A DNA stretch of 64,000 nucleotides from Oscillospiraceae bacterium (lineage in GTDB: Bacteria > Bacillota > Clostridia > Oscillospirales > CAG-272), in assembly GCA_015064725.1 (NCBI GenBank), contig SVRQ01000002.1, forward strand, positions 17,972 through 81,971, read 5' to 3'. Numbering within the stretch: position 1 is the stretch's first letter; the number at the start of each line of letters is the position of its first letter. The notes under the pieces are model-generated. The model was given only the letters and a program-made list of their open reading frames with translations, ran no database searches and was not told the origin of the DNA. Below, piece by piece: positions 9,047 to 15,667 of the stretch. The position numbers were made by a program, and so were the translations under genes.

Positions 9047-9248
9047 CTTGCATAAAAATGCAGTATGAAGTAAAAAACTGATGTAAAAAGGTTTTAAAAT
9101 ATACTTGAATTTTTAATACCCTTGTGTTATACTATGACTACGATTTAATAAAAATTTTCTTTTTTGATTTTTGTTTTGATACGAAACAAAAAAGAAGGAC
9201 GCTTTTGCGGTTTCCAACCCGCATAAAAAAATATTAAGGAGAGAAAAA

Positions 9249-10553
9249 ATGAAGAAAGAAATCAGAAGAATCGCACTCGTTTTCGCTGTTATTTTCACAT
9301 TTATGGCAGTAAGCTTTTGCTTGGTTTCCTGCGGTGACGGCGGCGCAGACAGCACAACAAAAAATCCCGTTCTTCCCACCCTTACAACAGGCGGAGATGC
9401 AACAACGGGAGGCACAACATCCGCAAACACAACTACAACCAATAACGTTGTTCCCGGTACAAGCGGCACAACGACAACACCTGTTACACCCCCCACAGGC
9501 GAATATGTAAACCCCCTTACGGGTCTTAAAACTACATATGATGCTTCCCAGAAGCGTCCCGTTGCCATCGTAGTTGACAACATCGGTCTTGCTCTTGCAC
9601 ACCAGACAGGTCTTAACCAGGCAGACGTTCTTTACGAAACACTCGTTGCTCCCGGCATCACACGTTTCCTTATGGTAGTTTCCAACTACACAAACCTTTC
9701 CAACGTTTGCAACGTTCGTTCCGCAAGAATCTTCCACATCGACCTTGCCGCTAACCACAATGCTATCCTCGTTTGCCACGGTGGTTCTACATACGAAGCT
9801 TTCGCAACGGTTGCTTCTATGCGTCTTGGCGGTGCTTGGAACGAAGAGCTTGGCAAGAATACATACGGCTACATCAACACAAAGGATGAATACGCTTTCG
9901 GTACACAGGAAGGCGGCCTTAAATACGGTACTATCAAGTATTACACAGGCGCATACAACTCCGGTCGTGTTGACCTTAAATACGATACACTCGTTACTGC
10001 AGGCGCGCTTATCGCAACACTCCAGTCCAACACGAGCCGCTTCCGTCTTTCCGGCAACTCCGTTGACGGCTTGACAAAGCAGTCCCTCAAGTTTGCAGCC
10101 GCAGGCACGGAAAGCGCTGTTATGAACGGTGCAAGCACAGCTACAAACGTTATCCTCAACTTCACGATGGACAACTTTGAAGGCGACAAGAACGTTTCCT
10201 ATATGCTCAAGAACGGCAAATACTACCGTTACCAGAACGGCACAGCTCATACAGACTCCGTTACAGGCGAACAGCTCTGCTTCACAAACCTCGTTACGCT
10301 CTTTACAGACGTTACAAGAGTTCAGGGTACTATTGAAGACCCCAACGTAGCTTCCGTAAGAACAACAGGTTCCGGCTCCGGCTACTACTTCTACAACGGT
10401 AAGTGCATCCCGATCAACTGGAGCAAGCTTACAGGCGACAGCGCACTCGTTCTTACAACGATTACGGGCGCAGAGCTCACACTTGCAACAGGTAACACAT
10501 ACATCGCTTACCTCGATAACACAAACACTTCTTCCGCTGTTATCTACAACTGA
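9249..10553 (+). CDS. DUF3048 (YerB-like) lipoprotein with Thr-rich linker
   Basis: Lipobox LVSC, Thr-rich stalk, NPLTGL, RPVAIVVDN, QTGLNQADVLYE...GITRF, VRSAR, HGGS. Confidence 0.8.
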   Translation: MKKEIRRIALVFAVIFTFMAVSFCLVSCGDGGADSTTKNPVLPTLTTGGDATTGGTTSANTTTTNNVVPGTSGTTTTPVTPPTGEYVNPLTGLKTTYDASQKRPVAIVVDNIGLALAHQTGLNQADVLYETLVAPGITRFLMVVSNYTNLSNVCNVRSARIFHIDLAANHNAILVCHGGSTYEAFATVASMRLGGAWNEELGKNTYGYINTKDEYAFGTQEGGLKYGTIKYYTGAYNSGRVDLKYDTLVTAGALIATLQSNTSRFRLSGNSVDGLTKQSLKFAAAGTESAVMNGASTATNVILNFTMDNFEGDKNVSYMLKNGKYYRYQNGTAHTDSVTGEQLCFTNLVTLFTDVTRVQGTIEDPNVASVRTTGSGSGYYFYNGKCIPINWSKLTGDSALVLTTITGAELTLATGNTYIAYLDNTNTSSAVIYN

Positions 10554-10565
10554 TAAGTAAATAAT

Positions 10566-10596
10566 AAAAGGCACTTCAAAATGAAGTGCCTTTTTT
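10566..10596. terminator. Bidirectional intrinsic terminator
   Basis: aaaaggcacttca-aaa-tgaagtgcctttttt between convergent genes. Confidence 0.75.
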
Positions 10597-10627
10597 ATGT
10601 TTTGAAGAAATCGAGCAAAGCGCGATC

Positions 10628-12049
10628 TTAAATATTATTTACCACGCCGACGAAAAGGGGAAGACCCACTTGGGACGTTATAACGAATATAAACGGTCTG
10701 TCAAGAACGAAATCAACAAAATCGTCGGGAGGCGGGGGAGAGCCCGCGTATTCAAGCATCGTAAAGGCAACTGCCTTGCAGCCTTCCTCATCTATCATAA
10801 CGCGCGCGCCGTGTGTCGCCTTTGAAACGGCAACCGCCGTGTCATCCGTCAAAGGGGAAAAGTCGGACTCTTTAAACGAGAATATATCCGTAACTCCAAG
10901 ATTTTGGAGGCCTTCTGTAAGGTTTATGGTGGAGGCAACGTCAAACTTTGGAATGCTTCTGTTCACTTTGATATAGGTGTTGTTTTTTCTGTTCGTTCCT
11001 ATGATAAAATCCATAGCTTCCTTGTTATCGAAAAGCTCTTCTGCGCTCACGCCCTCGTCGGGGAGGATAAAGTACATTTCTCCTCCGTCGGTGAAGCTTT
11101 GCGATATAGCGGAAAATTTTTCGCCCCAATAATATGTGTCATCGTAGGAGGCATACATAAAATCGCAGGTCTTATCTCCGCTTGTGCCGTGGAATGTTGC
11201 TTCCTCGGTCTTTTCTTTTTTGAATTCCGTGTTCCAACGGGCATAGAAGTTTACCGTCGTTGCAAGAGCCATAACTGTTTCGGGGGAAAATTCAAGCTGT
11301 TCTATGGAATCATCAAGAAGTCCGTCCGTCTGATCGCTCAGCCATTTGCGAAAAGCTTTCGTATATTCTTCGGATGTCACGTCGCCGCTGAAAGAGGAGG
11401 CGTAATAATTTTCCGCCGCCCGTTCGAGCGTGTCCTGCTTGAAGGATACGTCCTTGTTGAGCCAAAGGGAGCTTGCAAGCACGGTCTTTTTGGAGCCATC
11501 ATCAACGTAGCTCGCGTTCCATACCGTGTTTGCTTCGCGGCGAAGCGTTTCTATGTCGGAAGCCCCCAGGAGAGAGAGTATCTGCTCTCGGCTGTTTCCG
11601 TCCGTAAACTCCGCCGTCATAGCAAGCGCCATATATACGTTGAGAGGGGAATAAACACGGTTCTCTCCGTCCGTGTCGGAAAGGAACTCGCGTATCGTTG
11701 CACTGAAAAATGAGCCAAGGTCTATGTCCAGCGCATAATATGCGTTTCTTTTATCCCTGCGGTAATCTGCCCACTTTTCATATTTTGCTTCGTTGTTCCC
11801 TCTGCCGGGATAATCGGGCATATCGGGATACTGTGCAAGGGCAAGCGCATAGGCTTTCGGGGAAACGGAGCTCCAACCGGGGAGAAATACTGCTCCCAAA
11901 ACGAGGAACAGCGCAAGGCACGCGGCTATTGCCGCAGTCCATTTAACTTTTTTTGATTTTTTTGTTTGCTTTGGAATTTCTTTTGCTTCATTTACAAGAT
12001 CTTCGCCCACCATACCGATGGCATCCTGTAATTTTTCTGTTTTTTTCAT
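10628..12049 (-). CDS. Membrane-anchored serpin with an anti-sigma-like N-terminus
   Basis: VYSPLNVYMALAM, NFYARW..EF....T, IPKFDV, IDEEG hinge, FVLDRPFIFVI and PLFVGVV serpin signatures. N-terminal LQDAIG.V.EDLV.EA, basic stretch and TM helix. Confidence 0.85.
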   Translation of the reverse strand: MKKTEKLQDAIGMVGEDLVNEAKEIPKQTKKSKKVKWTAAIAACLALFLVLGAVFLPGWSSVSPKAYALALAQYPDMPDYPGRGNNEAKYEKWADYRRDKRNAYYALDIDLGSFFSATIREFLSDTDGENRVYSPLNVYMALAMTAEFTDGNSREQILSLLGASDIETLRREANTVWNASYVDDGSKKTVLASSLWLNKDVSFKQDTLERAAENYYASSFSGDVTSEEYTKAFRKWLSDQTDGLLDDSIEQLEFSPETVMALATTVNFYARWNTEFKKEKTEEATFHGTSGDKTCDFMYASYDDTYYWGEKFSAISQSFTDGGEMYFILPDEGVSAEELFDNKEAMDFIIGTNRKNNTYIKVNRSIPKFDVASTINLTEGLQNLGVTDIFSFKESDFSPLTDDTAVAVSKATHGARVMIDEEGCKAVAFTMLEYAGSPPPPDDFVDFVLDRPFIFVITSQVGLPLFVGVVNNI

Positions 12050-12603
12050 AGATAGATACCCTCCTTTATAAGTTCGCTTAAAAGTTTTTGCCTTGTGCGA
12101 AGAAGCATCATCTTGACCTTGCTTTGTCCAAATCCAAGCTTGCGTGCGATATCGCCGATGGGGTCCATATACCAATACCTGCGGATAAAAACAATGCGCT
12201 GTGTTTTTTCAAGCGACCGCAGGAATTTGTCTATTATAACGGAAAGCTCTTTTGCGCTTATTTCCTCCTCAACGCTTTCTTTTGCGGGGATACACTCCGA
12301 AAGCTCCGCGTCAAATCCGCCGTGAATACCGCCGCGTTTTTGCGCGGTACGGGCGCGCAACTTTTTGAGAGCCAGTTTTCTGGTTATTCCGCAGATAAAA
12401 GCGCAAAGAAACTGCGGCTTTTCGGGTGGGATGGCGTTCCACAGGGCAAGATAGGCATCGCTTACCACCTCTTCCGCATCCTGCGTGTTGCCGAGGATAT
12501 TGTAAGCGAGAGAGCTGCAGGCAGAGCCGAATTTTTCGCTTGTTTCGCGTATGGCTCGTTCATCGCGGGCAAAAAACATATCGAGAATAGAATTGTCATC
12601 CAT
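12046..12603 (-). CDS. ECF (sigma-70 group 4) RNA polymerase sigma factor
   Basis: Region 2 (AYNILGNTQDAEEVVSDAYLALW) and region 4 (RIVFIRRYW....IGDIARKLG....VKMMLLRTR) only. RBS aaaggagg. Stop overlaps the serpin start (ATGA). Confidence 0.9.
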   Translation of the reverse strand: MDDNSILDMFFARDERAIRETSEKFGSACSSLAYNILGNTQDAEEVVSDAYLALWNAIPPEKPQFLCAFICGITRKLALKKLRARTAQKRGGIHGGFDAELSECIPAKESVEEEISAKELSVIIDKFLRSLEKTQRIVFIRRYWYMDPIGDIARKLGFGQSKVKMMLLRTRQKLLSELIKEGIYL

Positions 12604-12627
12604 AATGCTGCCTCCTTTCACTATATA

Positions 12628-12654
12628 AGTACCGTTTTGCCTTGCCTGCGTCAC
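12628..12654 (-). promoter_or_regulatory. Possible autoregulatory ECF promoter
   Basis: On the minus strand, GTGAC-17 nt-GTACT lies just upstream of the sigma RBS. ECF genes are often autoregulated, but the motif is unverified. Confidence 0.3.
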
Positions 12655-12778
12655 GCAGAAAATAAAATAAAGTTGACTTTTGTCAACTTTATTTTGTGAA
12701 TTTGCGCAGAAAGAGACAGTCGGGGGACGCCTGCTGCTTCAAAAAATGATCTGTTTTTTGCAGCAGCTTAAAAAGAGC

Positions 12779-13441
12779 TTATTCCGCTTTTATTGTGTAG
12801 CCCACGCCGCGAACTGTAGAGATTATCTTTATTCCGAAGCGTTCGTCAAGCTTTTCTCTGAGGTAGCGGACGTAAACGTCCACGACGTTTGTTTCGCCTT
12901 CCTCCTCCTTGCCCCAGACCTCCTTTGCCGCCTGCGCGCGCGTAACGGTCTGCCCCTTGTTTTTGATAAGGAGCAGAAGCAGGGCAAACTCCCTCTGGGT
13001 AAGCTCCACGGTTTCTTTTCTGTATGAAACGGTGTGGTTCTTTTCCCCGAGGATAAGGGAGTCCGCTGCGCTTTTTCTGCGCTTTGCGGGGCGCACTCCG
13101 AGCAGAGCCTCGTCTGCGCGCTCAAAGATCGTTCCAAGAAACTCCTGAACGCAGAACGGACGCTCGAAAACGCGAAAGCCCGAGGGGATCTTCGTTTCGA
13201 GCCTTGAAAGCTCGCTTTTATATCCGAAAAGGATTATCTGCGTGAGTTCAAGGTTGGATATCTCTTCCGTGTAATAATCGAATATTTCGGCGCCGATCAC
13301 GGCGAAGTCCGCATCAAAGGCGTCCTTTGCGGCTTCCTCCGAAAGTTCCTCGAAAACCGTTACCTGCGCTCCGAAAAGGCTTATATCCCAAAAGAGCATA
13401 CGGGAAAACACTGCGTCTTTTGTAATTATCGTTATTTTCAT
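12779..13441 (-). CDS. OmpR/PhoB winged-helix regulator with degenerate receiver domain
   Basis: C-terminal LTQREFALL..L....GQTVTR...VW.....NVVDVYVRYLREKL....ISTVRGVGY. N-terminus lacks the acidic pocket and phospho-Asp. Confidence 0.8.
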   Translation of the reverse strand: MKITIITKDAVFSRMLFWDISLFGAQVTVFEELSEEAAKDAFDADFAVIGAEIFDYYTEEISNLELTQIILFGYKSELSRLETKIPSGFRVFERPFCVQEFLGTIFERADEALLGVRPAKRRKSAADSLILGEKNHTVSYRKETVELTQREFALLLLLIKNKGQTVTRAQAAKEVWGKEEEGETNVVDVYVRYLREKLDERFGIKIISTVRGVGYTIKAE

Positions 13442-13456
13442 ATCAAGCTCCGCACG

Positions 13457-15667
13457 TTATTTTTTTATCGGGGAGGGAACTGTCGGCACTTTTACCTTGC
13501 GAAGCCCCGACGTGTCCGGGAACTGCTTTTCAAAATCCTTTAGGGCAAACGCTACCTCGTCATCCTTTTTGAGAGTGAGAAGCGTTACTCCGGAGCTTGT
13601 TCGCGTTGTCTTGACGGGAATAAGCTTTGTATTGATAATACAGCCCTTGCCCGATCTTGTGCCGATGAATATTTCAAAAGGCTTATCCTCGTATATCGCG
13701 GCGATAAGCGGGGAGGCATCCGAGTAAGCTTTTACAAGCTTTTTACGGTTTGCCTTTGTTTCGTAGGATGAAACGGGTATCTTTACGCCCTTGCCGTTTG
13801 CGAAGATGTAGATGAGGTTGTGCGTTTCATCGTATTTTTTGAGCGCTTTCATAGCTATAACGCGCTCGCCGTCATCAAAATCGAGCTTCGCAGGGACAAA
13901 TTCACCGAGGGAGGAAGCCTTTACCTGATCGAAATCCGCCACGCGGGATTTGTATATCTGCGCATTGCTGCCGATGAAGATAAGCTCGTCAGCGTTCTCG
14001 GCATCTTCCTCTTGAATAACAACGTCCCCTTCCTTGAGCTTATGCTCGTCGCTTCCGCGAAGCGTGCTTGCGCGCAGGGAATTGTGCGTTATCTTTTTGA
14101 AGAAGCCATCGCGGGAGAGCACGAGGCGCACGGGGTAGTTTTCCACGTGGTCTTCTTCTTCGTAATTCGTAATATCTTCCTCGTAGATAAGGCGCGTTTG
14201 GCGCGGAATGGCGTATTTATCTTTTATCTTTGCAAGCTGCTTTGCGATATATCGCTTTGTTTTTGCCTCGGATTCGATAATGGAGGTAAGCTCCTCTATC
14301 TCCTTCTGAAGGTCATTTATCTCGGAAATGCGCTGCATAATGTATTCACGGTTGAGGTGTCGGAGCTTTATTTCCGCGATGTATTCCGCCTGCACCTCGT
14401 CAAGGCTGAAGCCTTTCATAAGGTTGGGAACAACGTCCGCTTCCTTTTCCGTTTCGCGGACGATCTTTATTGCTTTGTCTATATCAAGCAGTATTTCGCC
14501 AAGACCCAGCAGGAGGTGGAGCTTATCCTTTTTCTTGCCGAGGTCAAAGGTGAGCTCGCGCTTAACGCACGTCATACGGAAGCGTATCCACTCCGTAAGT
14601 ATTTCGCGTATGCCCATCGTGCGCGGGGTGCCGTCGATGAGGATGTTGAAGTTGCAGGCGAAATTATCCTGCAAGGGCGTTTTCTTGAAAAGCTTTGCCA
14701 TAAGCTTTTCGGGGTCTGTGCCGCGCTTCAGGTCGAGCGTGAGCTTGAAACCGTGAAGGTCGATCTCGTTTCGCGCATCCGTCACTTCCTTGAGAGAGCC
14801 ATCTTTTATCATATCCGTTATCTTTTTAAGAATGAGCTCTATCGTTGTGGAATAGGGGATCTCAAGAATATCTATGCAGTTTTCCGCTTTATCGTAAACG
14901 TAGCGTGCGCGAAGCGTAAAGCTGCCTTCGCCCGTTTCGTATATGTGGCGAAGCTTATCTCTGTCATAGATGATACCTGCACCGCCCGAAAAATCGGGCG
15001 CTTTTATAATATCGAGAAGGTCTTCCGTGGTGGTGTCTTTGTTTTTAAGCAGGGCTATCGTGCCGTCACATATCTCGCCCAAGTTGAAAGAGCAAATCTT
15101 ACTTGCCATACCGACGGCGATACCCATATTCGGGGAGACAAGCACGTTCGGGAACGCCGTGGGAAGGAGCACGGGCTCCTTCATCGTAGCATCGTAGTTG
15201 TCCGTCATATCGACGGCATCTTTATCTATACCGCCGAATATTTCATTACAAAACGTGTCCAGCTTTGCTTCCGTATAACGCGATGCCGCGTATGCCATAT
15301 CGGAGCTGTACTGCTTGCCGAAGTTACCCTTGGAATCCACAAACGGGTGAAGCAGCGCACCGTTGCCGCGGGTAAGGCGGACCATAGTTTCGTATATTGC
15401 CGCATCTCCGTGCGGGTTGAGCTTCATCGTCGCGCCGACGATGTTGGTGCTTTTCGTTCGCGGTCCCGTGAGAAGCCCCATTTTGTACATTGTGTAAAGA
15501 AGCTTTCTGTGGGAGGGCTTAAAGCCGTCTATCTCCGGGATAGCACGGGAGACTATGACCGTCATAACGTAGGGCATATAGTTTTTTTCTATCGTTTCCG
15601 TTATGGGCTGCGGAGTTACGGGGGCGTGGGGGAGGTTTTCTGTTATATTGTTTTTCTTTTTTGCCAT
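13457..15667 (-). CDS. Type IIA topoisomerase subunit A (GyrA/ParC family)
   Basis: RAIPEIDGFKPSHR, NPHGD, GNFG, AASRYTEAKL catalytic Tyr, GIAVGMA. Confidence 0.9.
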   Translation of the reverse strand: MAKKKNNITENLPHAPVTPQPITETIEKNYMPYVMTVIVSRAIPEIDGFKPSHRKLLYTMYKMGLLTGPRTKSTNIVGATMKLNPHGDAAIYETMVRLTRGNGALLHPFVDSKGNFGKQYSSDMAYAASRYTEAKLDTFCNEIFGGIDKDAVDMTDNYDATMKEPVLLPTAFPNVLVSPNMGIAVGMASKICSFNLGEICDGTIALLKNKDTTTEDLLDIIKAPDFSGGAGIIYDRDKLRHIYETGEGSFTLRARYVYDKAENCIDILEIPYSTTIELILKKITDMIKDGSLKEVTDARNEIDLHGFKLTLDLKRGTDPEKLMAKLFKKTPLQDNFACNFNILIDGTPRTMGIREILTEWIRFRMTCVKRELTFDLGKKKDKLHLLLGLGEILLDIDKAIKIVRETEKEADVVPNLMKGFSLDEVQAEYIAEIKLRHLNREYIMQRISEINDLQKEIEELTSIIESEAKTKRYIAKQLAKIKDKYAIPRQTRLIYEEDITNYEEEDHVENYPVRLVLSRDGFFKKITHNSLRASTLRGSDEHKLKEGDVVIQEEDAENADELIFIGSNAQIYKSRVADFDQVKASSLGEFVPAKLDFDDGERVIAMKALKKYDETHNLIYIFANGKGVKIPVSSYETKANRKKLVKAYSDASPLIAAIYEDKPFEIFIGTRSGKGCIINTKLIPVKTTRTSSGVTLLTLKKDDEVAFALKDFEKQFPDTSGLRKVKVPTVPSPIKK

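What the first reader, a model, noticed from the sequence alone, without database searches (positions are those of the whole stretch)
10628..12654. ECF sigma factor coupled to an anti-sigma-serpin fusion: candidate protease-sensing signalling system
Seen: the ECF sigma stop overlaps the next start (ATGA). That protein begins MKKTEKLQDAIGMVGEDLVNEAK, then a basic stretch and one TM helix (KWTAAIAACLALFLVLG) with no lipobox, followed by a complete serpin domain. Established: the gene directly after an ECF sigma is usually its anti-sigma (short cytoplasmic domain, TM, external sensor), and serpins undergo a large conformational change when a protease cleaves the reactive loop. From recall, the L..AIG.I.D..I.EA...W...AACL N-terminus is typical of clostridial proteins encoded after this sigma type. 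The hinge reads EEGCKAVAFT rather than the inhibitory EEGTEAAAAT, and the loop ends AGSPPPP. Inference: the serpin may act as a receptor or bait that converts attack by a host or competitor protease into sigma release, rather than as a plain inhibitor. I know of no characterised serpin-sensor anti-sigma.
Basis: partly seen in the sequence, partly recalled or inferred. Interest (0 to 1): 0.82.

Follow-up and report, generated by a model that had tools for sequence, protein, structure and literature searches.

The report
Serpin fused to anti-sigma membrane anchor
A gut Clostridia bacterium encodes an alternative sigma factor followed by a membrane protein whose short inner tail looks like the sigma factor's inhibitor and whose outer part is a complete protease-trapping serpin, a widespread but undescribed pairing that may let cells sense protease attack.

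Summary
An ECF-type sigma gene (12603-12046) overlaps by ATGA a 473-aa protein (12049-10628). That protein has a conserved N-terminal helix, a basic stretch, one TM helix and a full serpin domain.

The pairing is conserved. In 80 related loci, all 56 serpins with the N-terminal module have a homologous sigma directly upstream. Of 22 complete serpins without it, 21 have secretion signals (mostly lipoprotein-type) and no sigma.

The module also heads non-serpin ectodomains. In 29 of 29 loci from other genomes it follows a sigma of the same family. Module variants track sigma clades.

A conserved ECF-like promoter precedes the sigma genes, and terminator-like hairpins flank the two-gene unit.

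The hinge is nearly invariant and of the loop-inserting kind, variability peaks at P5-P3 with a second rise at P1-P2', and lipoprotein relatives carry the same loop.

Best reading: an inhibitory, surface-anchored serpin whose anchor is an anti-sigma module. Protease-triggered sigma release is inferred, not shown. Sigma-module binding could not be modelled because the tool queue stayed full. I found no description in print.

The parts
12664..12695 (-). Terminator-like hairpin with a T run, ending the upstream gene and insulating the unit
   Evidence: stem of 14 pairs followed by a T-rich tail. It lies just upstream of the promoter.
12628..12654 (-). ECF-type promoter candidate: GTGAC (-35), 17 nt, GTACT (-10 region), followed by TATATAGTGAAAGG
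   Evidence: Sequence. A two-part motif (GTnAC-like, 15-17 nt, CG(T/A)C-like) occurs in 30 of 52 upstream regions. In 300 mononucleotide shuffles the mean was 6.4 and the maximum 15.
12046..12603 (-). ECF (group 4) sigma factor gene, 185 aa, stop included
   Evidence: Sigma70_r2 and Sigma70_r4_2, TIGR02937 over its cut-off. AGGAGG lies before the ATG.
10628..12049 (-). Gene for the 473-aa membrane protein: N-terminal module, TM helix, linker and serpin. The start overlaps the sigma stop (ATGA).
11978..12049 (-). Residues 1-24: conserved cytoplasmic helix module (family consensus MKxEKLQDAIGMIxxDLIxxAK), the candidate sigma-binding part
   Evidence: Alignments A1 and A3. A profile of the module finds 897 cluster representatives, and the module sits at residues 1-6 in all 150 best. 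A sigma is always directly upstream.
11882..11938 (-). Residues 38-56: single TM helix, preceded by a basic stretch (residues 25-37)
   Evidence: mean hydropathy 2.62. Net charge +6 before and +1 after, so the N-terminus is inside.
11696..11881 (-). Residues 57-118: extracytoplasmic linker with a conserved AYAxAxAxYPxMxxYP...W motif ahead of the serpin body
   Evidence: Y74, P75, P81 and W93 are invariant in A1. The region is modelled as ordered (pLDDT 75-88, helix 87-106). It is also present in the lipoprotein relatives.
10634..11695 (-). Residues 119-472: serpin domain
   Evidence: Pfam PF00079, E 5.7e-65. The closest solved chains are tengpin, E 3e-36. The AF2 model has pTM 0.77 and Foldseek matches to serpins at E 1e-25 to 1e-30.
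10727..10789 (-). Residues 421-441: hinge and reactive-centre loop (EEGCKAVAFTMLEYAGSPPPP)
   Evidence: Position-wise conservation across 83 sequences is.
10566..10594 (.). Two-way terminator-like hairpin after the serpin stop, shared with the convergent gene
   Evidence: 13 pairs, T runs on both strands.

Best explanation
This is a two-gene, self-regulated ECF sigma / anti-sigma unit in which the anti-sigma factor's outer domain is a serpin.

Supported by comparison:
- The sigma and the 473-aa protein are made from one transcript with overlapping stop and start.
- The protein is a single-pass membrane protein with about 37 cytoplasmic residues and the serpin outside.
- The first ~24 residues form a module found at the N-terminus of many proteins. 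In every locus examined it lies next to a sigma of this family, and its variants follow the sigma clades.
- The serpin has the conserved hinge and variable loop of an inhibitory serpin, and occurs elsewhere as a plain lipoprotein.

Inferred: the module holds the sigma at the membrane while the serpin sits on the cell surface as a suicide inhibitor of small-P1 (elastase- or subtilisin-like) proteases from the gut.

More weakly inferred: protease attack leads to trimming of the ectodomain, either after the serpin is consumed or by cutting of the linker near the membrane. Intramembrane cleavage and release of the sigma would follow. The sigma would then re-induce its own operon and replace the used serpin.
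For: Anatomy: ATGA overlap, Shine-Dalgarno sites, TM helix with positive-inside charge. Terminator-like hairpins lie on both sides.

Linkage:
- Among 82 serpin ORFs in 80 loci, 56 of 56 with the module have a sigma homologue directly upstream.
- Of 22 complete ORFs without the module, 21 have none. The exception, L098, has a different ECF sigma and a different cytoplasmic N-terminus. Four ORFs are cut at the 5' end.
- The gap is -4 in 42 of 50 pairs.

The module is general:
- 50 of 201 genomes of the same order have it.
- All 29 fetched loci have the sigma directly upstream, gap -14 to +19.
- Only 4 of those 29 partner proteins are serpins.
- 897 cluster representatives match library-wide, always at the N-terminus in the best 150.
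- Of the 54 that are 200 aa or longer, 31 are serpins, 3 have other Pfam domains and 20 have none.

Co-evolution:
- Sigma and module similarities correlate at r 0.64, against a permutation maximum of 0.09.
- For 12 of 26 non-serpin partners, the nearest serpin-linked module belongs to one of the 5 nearest of 54 sigmas.

Self-regulation: the conserved promoter is found in 30 of 52 upstream regions.

Inhibitory type:
- The distance from P17 to the xRPF motif is 28-30 residues in 81 of 83 sequences.
- The model takes the loop-inserted form and matches cleaved miropin at TM 0.91, rmsd 2.3.
- The nearest solved relative, tengpin, forms complexes with elastase.

Precedents: RsiV is cleaved after binding lysozyme. 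The B. breve serpin is induced by protease.
Against: - No direct test of sigma-module binding was possible. The complex job was never accepted.
- The module matches no Pfam or NCBIfam anti-sigma model. At about 24 residues plus a basic stretch it is shorter than classical anti-sigma domains.
- The N-terminal anchor means that loop cleavage alone does not free the ectodomain, so an extra cut near the membrane has to be assumed.
- P1' is Pro in this protein and its five closest relatives. That is unfavourable for many serine proteases (recalled), so the scissile bond or the inhibitory power is uncertain here.
- The M50 peptidases found in the genome were not shown to be of the RasP/RseP kind, and the genome is 70% complete.
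- No further promoter copies were found, so the regulon is unknown.
- No RNA data are available.
Confidence: 0.6

Rival explanations
1. The protein is an anti-sigma factor, but protease attack is not the signal. The sigma would be released by some other cue, such as general envelope stress, growth phase or constant turnover. The serpin would simply be the product that the operon delivers to the surface.
For: The same serpin works with a lipoprotein anchor and no sigma. The anchor type changed at least 5 times, 9 by parsimony, in the serpin tree. The module-sigma cassette is combined with many unrelated ectodomains. Loop cleavage does not detach an N-terminally anchored serpin.
Against: In well-studied single-pass anti-sigma factors the ectodomain is the sensor, as in RsiV. 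Serpins were joined to at least two different sigma / N-terminus types. They make up 31 of 54 long module proteins in a search whose profile was built from serpin-linked modules and so favours them. This suggests selection for the combination itself. In B. breve serpin expression is protease-inducible.
Confidence: 0.22
2. The N-terminus is only a signal-anchor. The sigma drives serpin expression but is controlled elsewhere, so the protein is merely a sigma-regulated membrane inhibitor.
For: There is no match to any curated anti-sigma family. The cytoplasmic segment is short. Binding was not modelled.
Against: An anchor needs no conserved 24-residue cytoplasmic helix. The helix is found in every examined case beside this sigma family (56 of 56 and 29 of 29). 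It is replaced by an ordinary lipoprotein signal exactly where the sigma is missing. Its variants follow sigma clades whatever the ectodomain. No other conserved neighbour that could serve as the anti-sigma was found in 80 loci.
Confidence: 0.1
3. One reading: the serpin is a non-inhibitory bait or receptor. Its cleavage signals attack, but it does not trap proteases.
For: In this subclade P9 is Phe and P1' to P4' are Pro, which could make the protein a poor inhibitor.
Against: The hinge positions that must enter the sheet are conserved and uncharged across 83 sequences. F or Y at P9 is the family norm (76 of 83), including the sigma-less lipoproteins. By the usual alternation (recalled), P9 points outward.
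Confidence: 0.08

Closest known systems
RsiV / sigma-V of Bacillus subtilis (ECF30), lysozyme-sensing anti-sigma factor
   Same: RsiV is a single-pass anti-sigma factor encoded next to its ECF sigma. Its ectodomain binds a host defence enzyme directly. Release occurs by site-1 cleavage (signal peptidase) and then RasP (passages of PMC6066255). The cytoplasmic part is short. Some module-bearing relatives give weak DUF4179 hits, below the Pfam cut-off (L114, L129).
   Different: Here the ectodomain is a serpin, not the RsiV lysozyme-binding fold. The window protein has no DUF4179 match. The best NCBIfam matches of the sigma do not include a SigV model. Nothing here has been tested experimentally.
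Bifidobacterium serpin (B. longum BL0108; B. breve serpin with its neighbouring two-component system)
   Same: It is a serpin of a gut commensal, retained on the cell by an N-terminal membrane anchor without a signal-peptidase site. In B. breve its production is induced by a protease, papain (passages of PMC8012564).
   Different: Signalling there goes through a separate two-component system. Here the serpin itself carries the candidate regulator-binding tail and is paired with an ECF sigma.
Tengpin (Thermoanaerobacter tengcongensis), PDB 2pee, 2pef, 2vh4
   Same: It is the closest solved sequence relative (E 3e-36) and a Firmicute serpin. Its N-terminal extension packs on the serpin body and keeps the metastable native state, and it forms complexes with elastase (PMC1905895). 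The family here also has a conserved, ordered pre-serpin segment.
   Different: No sigma linkage is reported for tengpin. The extension sequences were not shown to be homologous.
Miropin (Tannerella forsythia) and siropins (gut Eubacterium)
   Same: These are bacterial serpins of host-associated anaerobes that inhibit host proteases (titles and abstracts in the listing). The cleaved miropin structure is the best low-rmsd match of the model.
   Different: I found no anti-sigma tail or ECF pairing described for them. I saw only the search listing for these papers.
RsgI / SigI of cellulolytic clostridia
   Same: These are clostridial membrane anti-sigma factors with exchangeable sensor ectodomains (recalled; the sigma-I-like factors are mentioned in PMC7826278).
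   Different: They use a different sigma type (sigma-I, not a canonical ECF) and a different N-terminal domain. Their sensors bind carbohydrates.

Membership tests
Serpin superfamily (PF00079) | Sequence match over the whole serpin fold | tested here: met
   Pfam: 220.4 bits against a cut-off of 27, profile positions 11-369 of 370. PDB relatives at E 3e-36. Foldseek E 1e-30 to 1e-25 to serpin structures.
Inhibitory serpins | Hinge with Glu at P17, Gly at P15, an uncharged P14 and small residues at P12 and P10 (criteria recalled from the serpin literature). Reactive loop of standard length. | tested here: met
   83 sequences: P17 E 83, P15 G 83, P14 C 44 / V 39, P12 A 82, P10 A 77, P8 T 80. Distance from P17 to xRPF is 28-30 residues in 81 of 83. 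P9 is Y or F in 76, not a small residue. In the window protein P1' to P4' are Pro.
Inhibitory serpins | Forms covalent, SDS-stable complexes with a target protease | not testable with these tools
   This needs the recombinant ectodomain and protease assays.
ECF (group 4) sigma factors | Only sigma-2 and sigma-4 regions, small size | tested here: met
   185 aa. Sigma70_r2 at residues 31-86 and Sigma70_r4_2 at 123-174, with no region 3 match. TIGR02937 scores 54.7 against a cut-off of 42.9.
ECF (group 4) sigma factors | Self-regulated promoter of ECF type upstream of its own gene | tested here: inconclusive
   A conserved two-part motif with a CG(T/A)C-like -10 occurs in 30 of 52 upstream regions (shuffle mean 6.4, maximum 15). 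Transcription from it was not shown. No RNA runs hold the locus.
Named ECF group (ECF classification 2.0) | Assignment with the group HMMs | not tested
   The group models are not available here. The NCBIfam equivalog models all score far below their cut-offs.
Membrane anti-sigma factors of ECF sigmas | Encoded next to and co-transcribed with the sigma. Single TM helix, N-terminus inside. | tested here: met
   ATGA overlap. Topology. Linkage 56 of 56 and 29 of 29.
Membrane anti-sigma factors of ECF sigmas | Recognisable anti-sigma domain (zf-HC2/RsrA-like, RskA, FecR, DUF4179 and the like) | tested here: not met
   No Pfam or NCBIfam match in residues 1-118 at E up to 0.1. The module is therefore not a member of a curated anti-sigma family. 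It may still work as one.
Membrane anti-sigma factors of ECF sigmas | Binds and inhibits its sigma | not testable with these tools
   The complex prediction job was never accepted. Only indirect co-evolution evidence is available.
Regulated intramembrane proteolysis pathway | A site-2 protease (M50, RasP/RseP type) in the genome | tested here: inconclusive
   PF02163 matches at C16:85376-85819 (50 bits) and on C21. The open frames are only 210-220 aa, and no PDZ domain was checked. The genome is 70% complete.

The most novel reading that the evidence does not exclude
The serpin acts as a consumption sensor. Its stressed-to-relaxed change on trapping a protease frees the conserved pre-serpin segment near the membrane, in the way tengpin's N-terminal clamp holds only the native state. 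This would expose a site-1 cut in the manner of RsiV. That would be a signalling use of the serpin conformational switch not known in any organism.
Probability: 0.25. Interest if true: 0.88.

Novelty: new variant of a known kind. Interest (0 to 1): 0.74.

Why it matters
ECF sigma / anti-sigma pairs are a major way for bacteria to sense the outside, but few sensor domains have a known ligand.

Here the sensor position is held by a domain whose biochemistry is very well understood: a one-shot conformational trap for proteases. That gives a concrete and easily tested hypothesis for how abundant, mostly uncultured gut Clostridia detect and counter host or competitor proteases.

The pairing is common. 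It is currently annotated only as "serpin family protein" or "hypothetical".

The work also defines a short, unannotated N-terminal module that marks the partner proteins of one ECF sigma family (897 cluster representatives).

Gut serine-protease balance is studied in inflammatory bowel disease. A protease-responsive bacterial serpin circuit would be relevant there and useful as a synthetic protease sensor.

Tried and rejected
- Complex prediction of the sigma (A2) with residues 1-40 (A3). It was never accepted because the queue was full or the machine gave no answer. There is no verdict of any kind.
- RNA evidence. The look-up of sequencing runs listed 20 holders, all animal gut or faeces metagenomes, and no RNA holder.
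- Regulon search. A weight-matrix scan and two regular expressions over the 1.6-Mb, 70%-complete genome gave no second convincing site. Of 10 hits to the strict pattern, only the sigma's own site lies directly upstream of a gene start in the flank printed. Gene context of the other nine was not checked further.
- Conserved third gene or target protease. Clustering of flanking ORFs in 80 loci gave only the serpin (80 loci) and the sigma (53 loci). The next four clusters (52, 25, 19 and 10 loci) are, by coordinates and composition, mostly overlapping or antisense shadow ORFs; this was judged by eye and not tested. The remaining clusters span 7 loci or fewer.
- Rfam search around the unit. One sub-threshold hit on the terminator (28 bits against 70), which I dismissed.
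- Own-genome search for further copies of the module found none.
- I considered the AYA motif after the TM helix as a hidden signal-peptidase site. The motif is equally present in the lipoprotein relatives, so its conservation cannot be credited to signalling.
Full report
**What is there**

Both genes lie on the minus strand. The sigma ORF can be read from a GTG at 12654. The ATG at 12603, preceded by AGGAGG, gives a 185-aa protein.

That protein matches Sigma70_r2 and Sigma70_r4_2 and reaches the TIGR02937 sigma70-ECF cut-off. Its TGA stop (12048-12046) overlaps the ATG (12049-12047) of a 473-aa protein.

The second protein begins MKKTEKLQDAIGMVGEDLVNEAK. A basic stretch follows, then a TM helix at residues 38-56. 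Net charge is +6 before the helix and +1 after it, so the N-terminus stays inside.

Outside the membrane come a 60-residue linker and a full serpin domain, Pfam residues 119-472, E 5.7e-65. Terminator-like hairpins lie upstream of the promoter and after the serpin stop. The unit therefore holds just these two genes.

**Is the pairing conserved?**

A protein search returned 3401 relatives among 7999 scored candidates. Of the best 120:
- 117 carry the same N-terminal module;
- one is a fragment;
- two carry another kind of cytoplasmic N-terminus.

In species-representative genomes 579 stretches encode a relative. They come from Oscillospiraceae, Lachnospiraceae, Ruminococcus, Acutalibacter and others, including a few cultured strains.

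Those 80 loci hold 82 strong serpin ORFs:
- 56 of 56 with the module have a homologue of the sigma directly upstream.
- 21 of 22 complete ORFs without the module have no sigma. By regex or by eye, 19 have lipoprotein-type signals, one a plain signal peptide (L092), and one a signal peptide with dockerin-like repeats (L102).
- The exception, L098, has a divergent ECF sigma overlapping a different cytoplasmic N-terminus. The same N-terminus is seen in P0091 and P0115.
- Four ORFs are cut at the 5' end.

In 42 of 50 pairs the first start codon found within -40 to +110 nt of the sigma stop that opens an ORF of at least 380 aa gives the 4-nt overlap. No third gene recurs in the flanks.

**The module belongs to the sigma, not to the serpin**

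A 40-position profile of the module (A3) finds it in 50 of 201 genomes of the same order. In all 29 fetched loci a sigma of the same family (E 2e-51 or better) ends within -14 to +19 nt of the module's start.

Only 4 of those 29 partner proteins are serpins. The rest have no Pfam match or only weak, sub-threshold ones: DUF4179, DUF4367 and FG-GAP.

Across 1.84 billion cluster representatives the profile finds 897 proteins at E 0.001 or better. The match starts at residues 1-6 in all of the best 150.

Of the 54 representatives that are 200 aa or longer, 31 are serpins. One has a beta-propeller domain, one an Ig-like surface domain, one DUF4367, and 20 have nothing known. The profile was built from serpin-linked modules, so this share is biased towards serpins.

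Three further results point the same way:
- On a sigma tree, serpin-linked and other sigmas are interleaved: 13 changes, at least 6 forced by well-supported branches.
- On a serpin tree, the anchor type changes 9 times, at least 5 forced. Two 5'-truncated rows were counted as lacking the module.
- Sigma and module similarities correlate (r 0.64, permutation maximum 0.09). For 12 of 26 non-serpin partners, the most similar serpin-linked module belongs to one of the five most similar of 54 sigmas.

Adjacent genes share ancestry, so the correlation alone is weak evidence. The cases with different ectodomains are the informative ones.

**Promoter**

Its consensus is roughly tGTnAC, 16 nt, (t)GCG(a/t)CT, then TATAGGTGAAGGG.

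A relaxed pattern matches 30 of 52 regions, against a mean of 6.4 and a maximum of 15 in 300 mononucleotide shuffles. The spacer is 16 nt in 21 regions, 17 in 7 and 15 in 2.

The CG(T/A)C-like -10 is what is expected of ECF promoters (recalled). This argues for self-regulation. I found no convincing second site in the incomplete genome.

**What kind of serpin?**

I numbered positions from the conserved hinge Glu-x-Gly by the usual convention (recalled). Across 83 sequences the counts are:
- P17 E in 83, P15 G in 83;
- P14 C in 44 and V in 39;
- P12 A in 82, P10 A in 77, P8 T in 80.

Entropy is highest at P5-P3 and rises again at P1-P2'. P2 is Gly in 73 and P1 is Ala or Ser in 63.

A fixed hinge with a variable loop is the signature of inhibitory serpins. 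It is identical in the sigma-linked and the lipoprotein forms.

The AF2 model (pLDDT 78.5, pTM 0.77) places residues 423-436 as a strand. It matches cleaved or latent serpins best, for example cleaved miropin at TM 0.91 and rmsd 2.3. This shows only that the loop can be modelled as inserted.

The closest solved relative is tengpin. Tengpin forms complexes with elastase, and its N-terminal extension traps the native state (passages of PMC1905895).

The family here also has a conserved and confidently modelled pre-serpin segment. In the window protein and its five closest relatives the loop ends AGSPPPP, so P1' is Pro. This leaves its exact cleavage site and potency open.

**Mechanism**

Supported by comparison:
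- a co-translated sigma and single-pass partner;
- a sigma-specific N-terminal module;
- a conserved promoter motif consistent with self-regulation (transcription not shown);
- a serpin of inhibitory type displayed outside the membrane.

Inferred: the module sequesters the sigma.

More weakly inferred: protease attack starts the breakdown of the anti-sigma factor, and the freed sigma replaces the consumed inhibitor.

Two precedents make this plausible:
- RsiV becomes a signal-peptidase and RasP substrate only after binding lysozyme (PMC6066255).
- The membrane-anchored serpin of B. breve is induced by papain through a two-component system (PMC8012564).

Two points weigh against it. An N-terminal anchor means that loop cleavage alone does not shed the ectodomain, so a second cut must be assumed. 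The site-2 protease is only tentatively present.

**Novelty**

Full-text searches gave nothing on this architecture, judged from the listings:
- serpin with anti-sigma factor and ECF: 2 papers;
- serpin with "extracytoplasmic function": 5 papers.

Other checks:
- The serpin phylogeny paper PMC8233489 has no occurrence of sigma, lipoprotein or operon.
- The gut serpinome review PMC8201313 has none of six relevant terms.
- The ECF reclassification paper does not mention serpin in its main text: it holds the other two terms yet was not returned by the three-term search. The part of its supplement held here, which was cut when stored, has no occurrence either.

Subscription journals were not searched.

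I rate this a new variant of a known kind: an ECF / anti-sigma system with a new, mechanistically suggestive sensor domain and an unannotated anti-sigma module.

Noticed in passing
Own genome outside the window: G000 contig C25, about 9095-14020 (loci L006 and L001): There is a second serpin: a 417-aa lipoprotein whose hinge reads EKGTKAAAVT. It sits in a same-strand run of small lipoprotein genes. About 2 kb upstream lies another ECF sigma whose stop overlaps a 199-aa single-pass protein with a different N-terminus. This may be a second sigma-controlled serpin cluster.
   Followed up: partly
L098:2465-4482; proteins P0091 and P0115: The same serpin family is also fused to a second kind of cytoplasmic N-terminus (MNRYKxAN...P..L plus a TM helix). 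In L098 that N-terminus overlaps a divergent ECF sigma by 4 nt. Serpins therefore seem to have been joined to at least two sigma / anchor types.
   Followed up: partly
window 12612-12627 (-) and the matching place in loci L024-L097: The stretch just after the -10 element (TATAGGTGAAGGGcc; TATATAGTGAAAGG in the window) is as conserved as the promoter itself across many genera. Its role is unexplained. It could be an extended -10 or discriminator, the transcript start, or a leader.
   Followed up: no
L065:1-4257; L073:1-3568; L040:2306-7278: Some genomes carry tandem copies: two sigma-serpin pairs in a row (L065), or serpin-sigma-serpin (L073). In L040 a sigma-serpin pair is followed 1.1 kb later by a second sigma of the same family. 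Its partner has the module but a non-serpin ectodomain with no Pfam match.
   Followed up: partly
Own genome: C30:53035-53502, C3:1772-2218, C22:28803-29276, C33:11029-11412, C27:26526-26981: Five ECF-like sigma matches lie in open frames of 521-576 aa. These would be sigma domains with long C-terminal extensions and no separate anti-sigma gene directly downstream.
   Followed up: no
window 10628-12049 (model m298fb190a0d5): AlphaFold2 modelled the serpin in the loop-inserted (latent or cleaved-like) state rather than the native state. This may be a modelling habit. Alternatively the body may easily go latent without its N-terminal segment, as tengpin does.
   Followed up: partly
window 12779-13441 (-): The gene upstream of the unit encodes a 220-aa protein whose C-terminus looks, by eye, like a winged-helix response-regulator output domain. 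Its N-terminal half did not look like a standard receiver. It was not searched against any library.
   Followed up: no
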